Shown here piece by piece: positions 13,401 through 16,400 of a stretch of 64,000 nt of DNA. The stretch lies in NCBI GenBank assembly GCA_963693365.1, contig CAVNZM010000003.1, positions 5,142,472 through 5,206,471 on the forward strand. The letters run 5' to 3'. Numbering within the stretch: position 1 is the stretch's first letter; every line of letters starts with the position of its first letter. The notes beneath the pieces are model-generated. The model was not told the origin of the DNA, made no database searches, and was given only the letters and a program-made list of their open reading frames with translations. Source of the DNA: Amoebidium appalachense (Eukaryota > Protista > Ichthyosporea). The position numbers and the translations under genes are program-made.

Positions 13401-16400
13401 CAAGGTGAATGGATTGACTCGAATACCGTGCATGATTTCGGGTGAGGATAAGTTCTGTTTGTGACGCATACGCTGTGTGTATGTGTTCTTTTTTCCAAGC
13501 TCTGTATTGTGCTGTCCAATATGATTATGCACTTTTTACTCTGTACTGCACACACACAACCCCCCCCCCCCCCCCCCCCCCCCCCCCCCCCCCCCCCCCC
13601 CCCCCCCCCCTCCCCCCCCCCCCCCCCCCCAAAAAAAAAAAAGAAAAAGAAAAAAAAAGAAAGAAAAGAAAAGAAAAGAAAAGAAAAGAAAAATTTCTTT
13701 CTCCCCTCCGGCAAGGATGGGCTCTGCTTTTGTTGCCTACTCGTTTTTTTTCTAACATATCTTCACCTGTTGTTTCTCTGTCAACTTTTCCCCTTTTTTC
13801 TTCCTTTTTTTCCTTTCTTTCCTCTTCTTTTCTTTTCTCTCTTTCTTTTTTTTTTTTTTTTTTTTTTCCCTCTTCCATCACAGGGCACTGGCGTTGATGA
13901 ATGAGCGAGACAGCCTGCAGTTCCAAATGAAGAAAATGGGCAACGGCAGAGAGCAGGAAAACCTCATGACGGAAATGCGCCAACTTATTATAAACCTGCA
14001 GGTGTGTACGTGTACGTGTTTGCATGGGTGTGTGCTTGTCAGTGGTGTGGGTGGGTGGGTGTCAGGGAGCGGGGGAGAGGGGGGGGGGGGGGGGGGGGGG
14101 GAGGGGTACGTGCAAGGGTGGGCGGAGGAGGAGGGAGGAGGGGGGGAGGTGCACGTGTGTGGGTGGGTGTACGTGTGGGTTGAAATGTATGCATGTGGTT
14201 GTAGGGGGGGGGGTGGATGTGTTGCAGTGGTGGGGGGAGACGGGCGGACGGGTGAGCAGGCAGGCAGGCACATCTACTTTTTTTTTTTTTGTTTCGGAGG
14301 AAGGGGGGGGGGGGGAAGGGGGGGTTGAAGATGTGGACACACCCATGGTTTACCTTTTTCTTCTATCTTAGGGACCTACACACACCTTAGGGACCTCCTT
14401 TTTTTGTTCCGGCTTATGGTCCCCCCCCCCCCCATTACTCCTCATGCTTTTTTTCTGTTGATTAAGGTTACTCCCCCCCCCCCCCCCCCCCCCCCCCCCC
14501 CCTCCCCGCCACCACCACCTCCTCCACCACCACCACCACCACCACCTCCTCCTCCTCCTCCTCTTCCCCCCCTCCTCCTCCTCCTCCCTCCCCCCCCCCC
14601 CCCCCCCCCCCCTGTCTGAGTTGGAGAGTCGTATATACGCGGGCTAAGGGGTCGAAACTCAGACGCAATTGATGACTTGGGCCCTCCCTGAGGATGGGCT
14701 CTGCTTATGACGCATACTGTGCGCATGGCTGATGTTGCATACTTGAATGTTTGCCTTTGCATGTGTCCTTCGTGTATGCGTACTTCGTACCGTGTTCCGC
14801 AATCAAACCCCCCCAGTCTTCTTTCAGAGGTGTCCTTTCAGGACAGACCACTGTGTGGAGACCGCTTTACTTCCATGCAACCGGGCATAGTTGCTCTGTG
14901 TCGTGCATCTGTAAGCACATACGCATTTTCCGCTGCACTGCATTAGTTTGCACACACATATTCACCGTTTTGCTCACCTTGCTTGCATTAGCAACCCTGC
15001 TCGTCTTTGATCAAGACGGGTTGACCCTCCCAAGTTCAGTTGATGCTGCTGTCTGAGTTGGAGAGTCGTATATACGCGGGCTAAGGGGTCGAAACTCAGA
15101 CGCAATTGATGACTTGGGCCCTCCCTGAGGATGGGCTCTGCTTATGACGCATACTGTGCGCATGGCTGATGTTGCATACTTGAATGTTTGCCTTTGCATG
15201 TGTCCTTCGTGGATGCGTACTTCGTACCGTGTTCCGCATTCAACCCCCCCCCCCCCCCCCCCCCCCCCCCCCCCCCCCCCCCCCCCCCCTCTCCCCCCCC
15301 ACATGTGCGCAAATTTACACGGACGTGTGCACAGAACCACAACTCTCGGCAGAAGAAAGAGATTCAACGCTACAAACAGAAGTTCGAAGAACTCAGAGCA
15401 AAGGAGGAGACGGTGTGTGCACCTGTGTGTGATCTGTGTGTGTGTGTGTGTGGGGGGGGGGGGGGGGGGGGTGTGTGTGTGTGTGTTTGGGGGGGGGGGG
15501 GGGTGTGTGTGTGTGTGTGTGTGTGTGTGTGTGTGTGTGTGTGTGTGTGTGTGTGTGCGCGCGCATATGCTGGCAGGTGGGTGGTGTGGACGTGCTACAT
15601 AGGGTAATCAAAGAAACTATATGTTATTTCTAAAAGGGGGATATTGGTGATGTGCGCAGAGGAGGGGGGGGGGGGGGGGGGGGTATCTTTCGTTAAGGCA
15701 TGGAGGCTTTAATGTGTTTTGTTACCGGTTGAAAGTGGACAGTCGTAGATGCCTGTGTGTGTGTGTGTGTGTGTGTGTGTGTGTGTGTGTGTGTGTGTGT
15801 GTGTGTGTGTGTGTGTGTGTGTGTGTGTGTGTGTGTGTGTGTGTGCGCGCATGCGCGTGCATGCGCGTGCATGTGTGTGTGTCTTGGGAAAGGAGTGAGG
15901 GGGGAAGGGGGGAGGGGGGGGGGGGGGGGGGACCAAATGTGAAACACGGAAGCAAAATGTGGTTGAAAGAATGCCATATACCTCTACCCAACCACACATT
16001 TGCATCCATGATACCCCACCAATGACAAATAATCCTCACACATTCTTGTCAACGCTGACATTGTTTGCTATTTTCAGGGCCAGGATGGAGGGGAGGAAGG
16101 TGGGGCTACAGAGGGCCAAGGGGCTGGGGACTTGGAGAGACGACCAAGTTTGGATGAGGGAGCATCGGTGGTGGATTTGAGAGAGGCTCTCAGGTCGGTG
16201 GGTGGGTGTGGAGGGGGGGGGGGGGGGGGGGGGGGGATGGTGTTTTTTGGTGTGTGTGTGTGTGTGTGTCTGGGCATCTGTGGTGGTTTGAGAAAGGCAC
16301 TCAGGTGTGGGTGGGTGGGTGGGTGGGTGGGTGGGTGGGTGGGGAGGAGGGGTGGGTGGGTGGGTGGGAAGAGGGTGGGGGGGGGGGGGGGGGGGGGGGG

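What the first reader, a model, noticed from the sequence alone, without database searches (positions are those of the whole stretch)
14999..15138. Covarying pseudoknot-like RNA structure conserved in the element 3' region
Seen in two subfamilies (15000-15140 and the reverse complement of 63830-63963): hairpin GCTCGTCT-YTGATCA-AGACGGGT; stem X GACCCT/GGGGTC versus GACCTA/TAGGTC; stem Y GTCTGAGTT/AACTCAGAC versus ACAGTATCTGAGTT/AACTCGGGTACTGT (G-U pairs work only on this strand); a central palindrome CGTATATACG versus TCGTTAACGA; and hairpin GGGCCC...CTGAGGAT-GGGCTC. X and Y interleave (15023-28, 15051-59, 15085-90, 15093-101), giving a pseudoknot or a conformational switch around an invariant GGTCGAAACTC. 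Hammerhead-like half motifs (YTGATCA..GAC, GTCGAAAC, CTGAGGA) are present, but I could not fold a canonical hammerhead or HDV core. Inference: a possibly new ribozyme variant or RT-recognition structure.
Basis: partly seen in the sequence, partly recalled or inferred. Interest (0 to 1): 0.8.

Follow-up and report, generated by a model that had tools for sequence, protein, structure and literature searches.

The report
Split-core hammerhead in protist tandem repeat
A short, non-coding mobile repeat in what is likely a single-celled relative of animals carries a predicted self-cutting RNA (a hammerhead ribozyme) whose parts come in scrambled order with the catalytic core split in two, and the same layout can be read in published 'Naiad' jumping genes that were reported to lack such an RNA; cutting is untested.

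Summary
Y is stem III and X is stem II. Predicted cut: 15059/15060.

The order is S-G-C, as in type-SGC hammerheads, but stem II's 5' strand lies about 100 nt upstream of CUGAGGA, and W plus a hairpin fill the A9/G10.1 step. Eckert 2023 assumed that step cannot be split.

Shuffles: 1 hit in 100 windows, 0 of 40,000 motifs. Six of 44 pairs show double changes, but from only three informative copies. The same seven-helix layout reads by eye in four unrelated Naiad consensus families.

The motif sits in a 437-nt, head-to-tail, C-run-inserted repeat (Penelope/retrozyme-like) of a likely ichthyosporean. New here: subfamily-specific palindromes that could dimerise the RNA.

This scan reported scrambled Naiad hammerheads before, in animal genomes. 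Ten paper searches found no split-core form in print. Against: U17, short stem I, a strong competing hairpin, no cleavage data.

The parts
14815..15251 (+). One full 437-nt unit of the tandem repeat (subfamily 1), ending in AA plus a C-run
   Evidence: Head-to-tail junction at 14807-14815 in the window; joint 15243->14816 in contigs of 4 of 4 runs laid; cut-to-cut distance 437
14612..14814 (+). 5'-truncated upstream tandem copy; has blocks S, G and C but no stem II 5' strand of its own
   Evidence: 98.5% identical to 15049-15251; descriptor finds the S-G-C core but not the split form
14987..14997 (+). Helix W, 5' strand (pairs 15133-15145)
   Evidence: Duplex -11.1 and -12.0 kcal/mol in the two subfamilies; the 14989 T>A change that repairs its one mismatch has depth 26923 of 26934 in run X1; otherwise invariant, so no covariation
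14999..15021 (+). Hairpin H with palindromic loop UGAUCA; with W it fills the A9/G10.1 step
   Evidence: Pair probability 0.98 in subfamily 1 and 0.26 in subfamily 2; equivalent hairpin in Naiads
15023..15028 (+).
   Evidence: 3 of 6 pairs change on both sides, 100% of cells paired
15029..15036 (+). Stem Z 5' strand (pairs 15111-15118), counterpart of the stem I-II interaction helix of type-SGC
   Evidence: 8 of 8 pairs in both subfamilies, 1 double change
15041..15046 (+). Kink-turn-like joint between Z and III (with 15102-15110)
   Evidence: Sequence: tandem G.A pairs, U.U and a 3-nt bulge in subfamily 1; subfamily 2 keeps the G.A and U.U positions but not the 3-nt bulge. K-turn consensus is recalled, not from a call
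15051..15063 (+). Block S: stem III 5' strand, U16.1 = 15058, H17 = 15059 (predicted cut 15059/15060), stem I 5' strand 15060-63
   Evidence: Descriptor register; stem I pair 3 is A-U in subfamily 1 and G-C in subfamily 2
15067..15076 (+). 10-nt palindrome in the linker between stems I and II; predicted dimer contact
   Evidence: Self-duplex -11.2, other subfamily -12.0, cross-duplex -2.3 kcal/mol; 284 and 123 of 20000 linker shuffles reach 10 nt
15085..15101 (+). Block G: stem II 3' strand, C11.1 = 15090, G12-A14 = 15091-93, A15.1 = 15094, stem III 3' strand
15111..15145 (+). Z 3' strand, stem I 3' strand (15121-24), core CUGAGGA (15125-31), U, W 3' strand; overlaps the competing hairpin 15116-15138
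63735..64000 (-). Subfamily 2 copy with the complete motif (G10.1 63939, U16.1 63905, G12 63876, C3 63842); cut off by the window end
   Evidence: 73.6% identity to subfamily 1 over 288 columns; descriptor hit
18036..18209 (+). 5'-truncated subfamily 2 copy between C-rich runs; one base missing at the core start
388..571 (+). 5'-truncated subfamily 1 copy between C-runs
1790..1933 (+). 5'-truncated subfamily 1 copy that starts at the core
13353..13566 (+). Old decayed copy; keeps a 5-bp stem II with a further double change

Best explanation
The motif is a predicted hammerhead ribozyme wired in four blocks, likely cutting its own RNA after 15059, and it sits in a 437-nt non-coding head-to-tail repeat that likely moves with the help of a Penelope-like (Naiad/Chlamys-type) retroelement. 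SHOWN in sequence: the strand order is W5', hairpin H, stem II 5', Z5', stem III 5'-U-U-stem I 5', linker, stem II 3'-GAAA-stem III 3', Z3', stem I 3'-CUGAGGA-U, W3'; the repeat is tandem, 5'-truncated in most copies, and abuts C-runs. INFERRED fold: Z, a bent joint and III form a long arm that doubles back, so that its loop docks on the two strands flanking its base (stems I and II as pseudoknots). W and H would stack and hold A9 next to G10.1 although the backbone between them is broken. INFERRED cycle: cuts in successive units would release a 437-nt RNA that could be circularised, and an unidentified autonomous element would copy it into C-runs, primed by the unit's own terminal C-run. The overlapping hairpin at 15116-38 would be an off state. 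The palindromes would pair like copies with like.
For: All 13 core positions of the consensus in PMC3088659 (passages), plus G10.1-C11.1, are present and identical in two subfamilies that are 73.6% alike. A descriptor finds the split form at exactly the two full copies; it gave 1 hit in 100 block-shuffled windows (both strands) and 0 of 20000 shuffles for each motif. On 9 window copies, 95.2% of 126 cells pair, 6 of 44 pairs change on both sides (3 in II, 1 each in I, III and Z), and slid controls give 32-45%. The upstream strand binds the stem II 3' strand better than the strand after A9 does (-9.0 vs -5.6, and -7.0 vs -2.6 kcal/mol). In the supplement of PMC8557442 the same W-H-II-Z-III-I layout, with CUGAUGA not followed by a stem II strand, reads by eye in 7 Naiad consensus entries of 4 unrelated sequence families. 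One unpaired base between positions 9 and 10.1 is a conserved feature of PLE hammerheads (PMC4209133 passages), so that step tolerates insertion. Tandem joint in 4 of 4 runs. Seven of the 9 copies whose 3' end matched the end motif are followed by 9 or more C in 12 nt, against a baseline of 4-8% of positions.
Against: No cleavage, end or strand data: only contigs were available. Covariation rests on three informative copies; the descriptor's distances and the structure were drawn from these same copies, so the controls lean in their favour. W and H are invariant and carry no covariation. H17 is U where the four Naiad families have A or C; stem I is 3-4 bp against 5-6 bp there. The competing hairpin is strong (-13.0 and -10.4 kcal/mol; probability 0.68 and 0.21), and in subfamily 2 the nested ensemble gives Z only 0.08 and W 0.18 (pseudoknots not modelled). 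Subfamily 2 lacks a canonical kink, so the monomer geometry is less clear there. Contig variants break some pairs: 15028, 15035, and a third form that rewrites Z3' and stem I 3' behind unrelated upstream DNA. No autonomous partner was found.
Confidence: 0.7

Rival explanations
1. The same fold, but it works only as a dimer: the arm of one copy docks on the base of another, joined through the palindromes, so that only tandem or paired RNAs are cut.
For: Two different 10-nt palindromes at the same place, which pair with themselves and not with each other and do not fold alone; a palindromic H loop; short stem I; dimer cleavage is described for PLE hammerheads (PMC4209133 and PMC6765202 passages).
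Against: The four Naiad families have 1-5-nt linkers with no palindrome and the same scaffold; stem III is long (9 and 13 bp), unlike the dimer-dependent type I forms.
Confidence: 0.1
2. The fold is real but is not an active ribozyme here; it is kept as a binding or priming scaffold for the mobilising RT/endonuclease, or held off by the 15116-38 hairpin.
For: U17, short stem I, the strong competing hairpin; copies lie in the sense strand of introns of a conserved gene whose spliced product is on record; in an anole PLE, hammerhead cleavage was not needed for insertion in vitro (PMC11167929 passages); many mobile copies lack the 5' half.
Against: Every catalytic base is kept across subfamilies and across unrelated Naiads while the stems change; a pure scaffold would not need that.
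Confidence: 0.13
3. An ordinary type-SGC hammerhead: stem II uses the strand right after A9 (15133-39, one bulged U), and X is an antisense strand that switches it off.
For: That strand can form 6 of 7 pairs in subfamily 1, with one double change in a decayed copy; a bulged base after A9 is common in PLE hammerheads.
Against: A mismatch at the third pair in 7 of 7 copies, 75.5% of cells paired; weaker duplexes; no three contiguous pairs; in Naiad_Plae the bases after A9 cannot pair with C11.1 at all.
Confidence: 0.05
4. Chance assembly of core words in a repeat that is structured for other reasons.
For: Small sample; Rfam finds nothing here; the model was fitted by hand.
Against: Shuffle rates; 0 of 15 viral and 0 of 24 metagenome word matches carry the stems; the layout recurs in unrelated Naiads.
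Confidence: 0.02

Closest known systems
Type-SGC non-circularly permuted hammerheads (Eckert et al. 2023, PMC10085705; parts 1-6 of 8 read, supplement not read)
   Same: Order S, G, C; stems as pseudoknots; a helix that joins the free sides of stems I and II; stem I linked directly to stem II.
   Different: There block C is intact, and the authors assume it cannot be interrupted by more than 1-2 nt. Here its stem II strand lies upstream and two helices sit between A9 and G10.1. The linker is 18-22 nt with a palindrome, not about 3 nt. Type-SGC came from metatranscriptomes; this is genomic DNA of a eukaryote.
3' UTR motif of Naiad Penelope-like elements (Craig et al. 2021, PMC8557442; passages and parts of the supplement read)
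   Same: The same seven-helix, split-core layout reads by eye in Naiad_Plae, two Octopus, three Acropora and one further entry; tandem, 5'-truncated, microsatellite-inserted copies.
   Different: The paper reports no canonical hammerhead in Naiads and flags only 'HHR_core' or 'HHR_half_core'. Naiads are animal, code for EN-RT and prefer (TA)n; this repeat is non-coding, abuts (C)n, has U17, a short stem I and palindromic loops.
Chlamys elements and their non-autonomous forms such as MRC1 (PMC8557442)
   Same: (C)n and (CA)n targets, head-to-tail non-autonomous copies; Chlamys-1 and -2_cRei also end in AA plus a C-run.
   Different: I saw no such motif in the 3' ends of those two Chlamys (the only two read whole); Chlamys are reported from algae, spike mosses and slime moulds.
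Non-LTR retrozymes (Cervera and de la Pena 2020, PMC7229834, passages; Li et al. 2026 bioRxiv 10.64898/2026.07.22.740005, part 1 of 5 and passages)
   Same: Non-coding tandem unit of 150-450 nt with one hammerhead each; proposed PLE origin.
   Different: They carry type I hammerheads and are described in animals; circles are shown there and untested here.

Membership tests
Hammerhead ribozyme | C3 U4 G5 A6 N7 G8 A9; G12 A13 A14 A15.1; U16.1 H17 | tested here: met
   15125-31, 15091-94, 15058-59 and their subfamily 2 equivalents (consensus)
Hammerhead ribozyme | Stems I, II and III paired directly next to the core, with G10.1-C11.1 | tested here: met
   4/3, 5/6 and 9/13 bp in the two copies, each stem with at least one double change
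Hammerhead ribozyme | A9 joined to position 10.1 with at most 1-2 inserted bases | tested here: not met
   G10.1 lies 108 nt upstream of A9; the contiguous alternative has a fixed mismatch
Hammerhead ribozyme | Site-specific self-cleavage after H17 | not testable with these tools
   No raw RNA reads were offered
Type-SGC hammerhead | Block order S, G, C | tested here: met
Type-SGC hammerhead | Helix joining the free sides of stems I and II | tested here: met
   Stem Z, 8 of 8 pairs in both subfamilies
Type-SGC hammerhead | Intact block C, and a stem I-II linker of about 3 nt | tested here: not met
   Block C is split; linker 22 and 18 nt
Non-LTR retrozyme | Non-coding tandem unit of 150-450 nt with a ribozyme in each unit | tested here: met
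   437 nt, stops in all three + frames, joint in 4 of 4 runs
Non-LTR retrozyme | Type I hammerhead | tested here: not met
   Order is not C-G-S; no Rfam hammerhead hit among the 150 of 178 matches shown
Non-LTR retrozyme | Expressed as unit-length linear and circular RNA | not testable with these tools
   Contigs cannot tell a circle from a DNA tandem; run type is a guess
Naiad/Chlamys-dependent non-autonomous PLE | Partial tandems, 5' truncation, insertion at (C)n or (CA)n | tested here: met
Naiad/Chlamys-dependent non-autonomous PLE | 3' end shared with an autonomous EN-RT element of the same genome | tested here: inconclusive
   No genome held; only a weak GIY-YIG remnant at 56069-56308, E 0.018, below cut-off, with no homologue found
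HDV-like, twister, pistol, hatchet and other Rfam ribozymes | Match to the family covariance model | tested here: not met
   No match at either locus among the 150 of 178 listed at E up to 1; the 28 weakest were not shown

The most novel reading that the evidence does not exclude
A four-block hammerhead class, broken inside the CUGAnGA-stem II block that was assumed indivisible and rebuilt by an inserted two-helix domain, is the ancestral ribozyme of N-terminal-endonuclease Penelope elements and reaches beyond animals into ichthyosporeans. In this lineage it has gained subfamily-specific palindromes that make like copies dimerise and so gate cleavage or template pairing: a self-recognition code in a retroelement ribozyme.
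Probability: 0.3. Interest if true: 0.88.

Novelty: new variant of a known kind. Interest (0 to 1): 0.72.

Why it matters
If it cuts, the six-permutation scheme for hammerheads is incomplete: the core can be split at A9/G10.1 and still work, which matters for ribozyme structure, engineering and search descriptors. It would also answer why Naiad elements and their relatives were reported to lack hammerheads: the descriptors could not see this wiring. A copy in a likely ichthyosporean extends the form beyond animals. The claim can be tested with one 168-nt transcript.

Tried and rejected
No host genome is held, so only window copies could be aligned.

Rfam: nothing at either locus among 150 of 178 matches shown. 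Global folding z-scores are weak (-1.25 and -0.76), as expected for a pseudoknotted fold.

Run search: no RNA holder listed; three runs are only guessed to be RNA, all are contigs. Depth and expression were therefore not used. No variant was listed at a core base, but with 7 variable places in the 159-nt subfamily 1 motif this says little. Variants at 63935 and 63881 have like depth in X1 (1425, 1434) but not in X2 (4, 168.5) and are unphased, so I did not count them as covariation.

Relatives elsewhere: metagenome scans gave 0 hits and 24 hits without the motif. The viral scan gave 15 hits, none with the stems. The scan's sequence and place look-ups were empty, as were three word look-ups.

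Rejected readings: YTGATCA as a core half (no G8); a ribozyme on the opposite strand (no CUGANGA); the canonical stem II after A9.

Paper searches found no split-core hammerhead and, by titles and abstract starts, no PLE or ribozyme report for ichthyosporeans. The library lacks most subscription papers. PMC13725137 mentions variants with 'additional helices'; one cited paper, PMC10162972, gave no such passage, and I did not trace its reference 13. The supplements of Eckert 2023 and of the 2026 preprint were not seen and could bear on novelty.

Full report
OBSERVATION. The two marker words are far above chance: 6 matches against 0.91 expected, and 8 against 0.10. The two subfamilies are 73.6% identical over 288 columns. 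Rfam lists nothing at either locus among the 150 of 178 matches shown.

THE ELEMENT. A profile of five copies finds 14 hits at E<0.01, of 18 listed; most are 5'-truncated and share the 3' end. Copy 14612-14814 runs directly into the unit 14815-15251. The same head-to-tail joint (15243 to 14816, with a short C-run between) appears in contigs of 4 of 4 runs laid. The period is 437 nt, and all three + frames have stops. The 3'-end motif matched 14 places; 9 are ends of copies, 7 of these are followed by 9 or more C in 12 nt, and the other two by 8 (one is the tandem junction). The baseline is 4-8% of positions. Partial tandems, 5' truncation and (C)n targets are described for Chlamys/Naiad PLEs and their non-autonomous forms (PMC8557442, passages). 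No autonomous partner was seen.

HOST. The best named hits of the G3PDH gene at 58405 are Sphaeroforma arctica (57%) and a CFRG-labelled protein (60%). A host exon hits an Ihof-labelled protein at 82%. Reading these labels as Creolimax and Ichthyophonus is recalled. The host is therefore likely an ichthyosporean. The tandem lies in the sense strand of the intron 14002-15331 of a RING E3 ligase gene with about 23 exons (the name BRE1-like is my recollection).

THE FOLD. Y is stem III, with A15.1 (15094) on U16.1 (15058) and H17 = U15059. The bases after H17 pair with those just before CUGAGGA: GGAG/CUCC in subfamily 1, GGG/CCC in subfamily 2, with a double change at the third pair. This is stem I, in a register the core leaves no freedom to choose. 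X is stem II and ends in G10.1-C11.1 before GAAA. All 13 core bases of the consensus in PMC3088659 are present in both copies. A stem search showed two more helices. Z (15029-36/15111-18) joins the free ends of stems II and I. W (14987-97/15133-45) pairs the bases after A9 with those before hairpin H. So A9 leads through one U into W, and H leads into G10.1: the core is split, and a two-helix domain bridges the gap. Between Z and III, subfamily 1 has a kink-turn signature (consensus recalled; the lead came from earlier scan notes). Subfamily 2 keeps the tandem G.A positions but not the 3-nt bulge.

CHANCE AND COVARIATION. A descriptor for this order hits the two full copies only. It gave 1 hit in 100 block-shuffled windows and 0 of 20000 shuffles per motif; the canonical stem II after A9 failed. 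Its distances were set from these copies. On alignment A1 (9 copies) the split model pairs 95.2% of 126 cells, with 6 of 44 pairs changed on both sides; 4 of 500 shuffles reach that and slid controls give 32-45%. Only three rows span the upstream strands, W and H never vary, and the structure was derived from these rows, so this is support and not proof. The rival stem II pairs 75.5% of cells with a fixed mismatch and is 3.4-4.4 kcal/mol weaker.

INDEPENDENT SUPPORT. Earlier scan notes pointed to Naiads, so I checked the supplement of PMC8557442 (parts 1, 12 and 28 of 59 read, and three searches). By eye, the full order W5'-H-II5'-Z5'-III5'-UH-I5'-short linker-II3'-GAAA-III3'-Z3'-I3'-CUGAUGA-W3' is present in Naiad_Plae (W 5, H 8, II 6, Z 8, III 6, I 6 bp). 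It is also present in two Octopus entries (W only 3 bp), three Acropora entries (one with two mismatches) and one unnamed entry near part 19. That is 7 entries in 4 unrelated sequence families, of 54 Naiads listed. Names other than Plae follow from header order. I did not screen the rest, and several other CUGANGA contexts (parts 8, 16-19) I did not resolve. The two Chlamys read whole showed no such motif. The paper reports no canonical hammerhead in Naiads.

COMPARISON. Eckert et al. 2023 validated type-SGC hammerheads with the same S-G-C order and an equivalent of Z. They assumed that CUGAnGA and its neighbouring stem strands cannot be separated by more than 1-2 nt. This motif is formally an SGC form opened at A9/G10.1. 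That step carries one extra base in many PLE hammerheads and in a viroid. It works like a hammerhead by prediction, but fails one defining feature of every published type.

WHAT IS PARTICULAR HERE. [quoted passage not shown] Here they are 22 and 18 nt, each with a different perfect 10-nt palindrome (284 and 123 of 20000 shuffles). The palindromes pair with themselves (-11.2, -12.0) and not with each other (-2.3), and neither folds alone. The loop of H is palindromic too. I infer like-with-like dimer contacts; a DNA-level role or an in-context hairpin is not excluded.

AGAINST. There are no cleavage or RNA-end data. U17 and a 3-4-bp stem I are weaker than in the Naiad examples. Some contig variants break pairs. 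Sense-strand intronic copies coexist with a spliced product on record, though whether that strain has the insertions is unknown. An anole PLE did not need hammerhead cleavage in vitro.

VERDICT. Real, and most likely a split-core, four-block hammerhead in a retrozyme-like Penelope hitchhiker (0.7; about 0.8 for cleavage in some form, dimer included). New variant of a known kind. Not found in ten paper searches; reported earlier within this scan for animal Naiads. Interest 0.72.

Noticed in passing
window 4419-23989 (+): A RING E3 ligase gene (BRE1-like by recollection) of about 23 exons, mapped with P0121. All 6 repeat hits inside it (8542, 13379, 13713, 14608, 15049, 18036) are in the sense strand, although 7000-23500 has 42 C-runs and 53 G-runs on +. 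Window-wide, 13 of 14 hits at E<0.01 are on +. The sense bias is unexplained.
   Followed up: partly
window 56069-56308 (+): GIY-YIG-like remnant (Pfam GIY_YIG_2, E 0.018, below cut-off) about 100 nt upstream of a decayed copy at 56416; possible piece of the autonomous element. No homologue found.
   Followed up: partly
window 63845-63891, contigs of runs X1 and X2: An abundant third form with Z3' and stem I 3' rewritten and unrelated DNA upstream of the palindrome; likely a truncated derivative inside another repeat.
   Followed up: no
window 20653-20736 (+): An intron-containing tRNA gene (Rfam 54.4 bits; the anticodon reads as Tyr by eye) inside an intron of the RING ligase gene.
   Followed up: no
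window 7328-8038 (+): Three near-copies of one exon region (7426-7519, 7689-7776, 7915-8008): a possible exon triplication or alternative exons.
   Followed up: no
window 1341-1933 (+): A truncated copy starts right at the core and follows a unique 151-aa open frame rather than a C-run; it may be a fusion or part of a longer element.
   Followed up: no
window 15206, contigs of X3 and X4, and copy 1790: A 14-15-nt segment present in most forms of the 3' region is missing from the window's 14612 and 15049 copies.
   Followed up: no
window 37396-38787, 58351-59442, 53435-54844 (+): An RGS-domain gene, an NAD-dependent G3PDH gene, and an Ala/Gln-repeat protein with an apparent signal peptide.
   Followed up: partly
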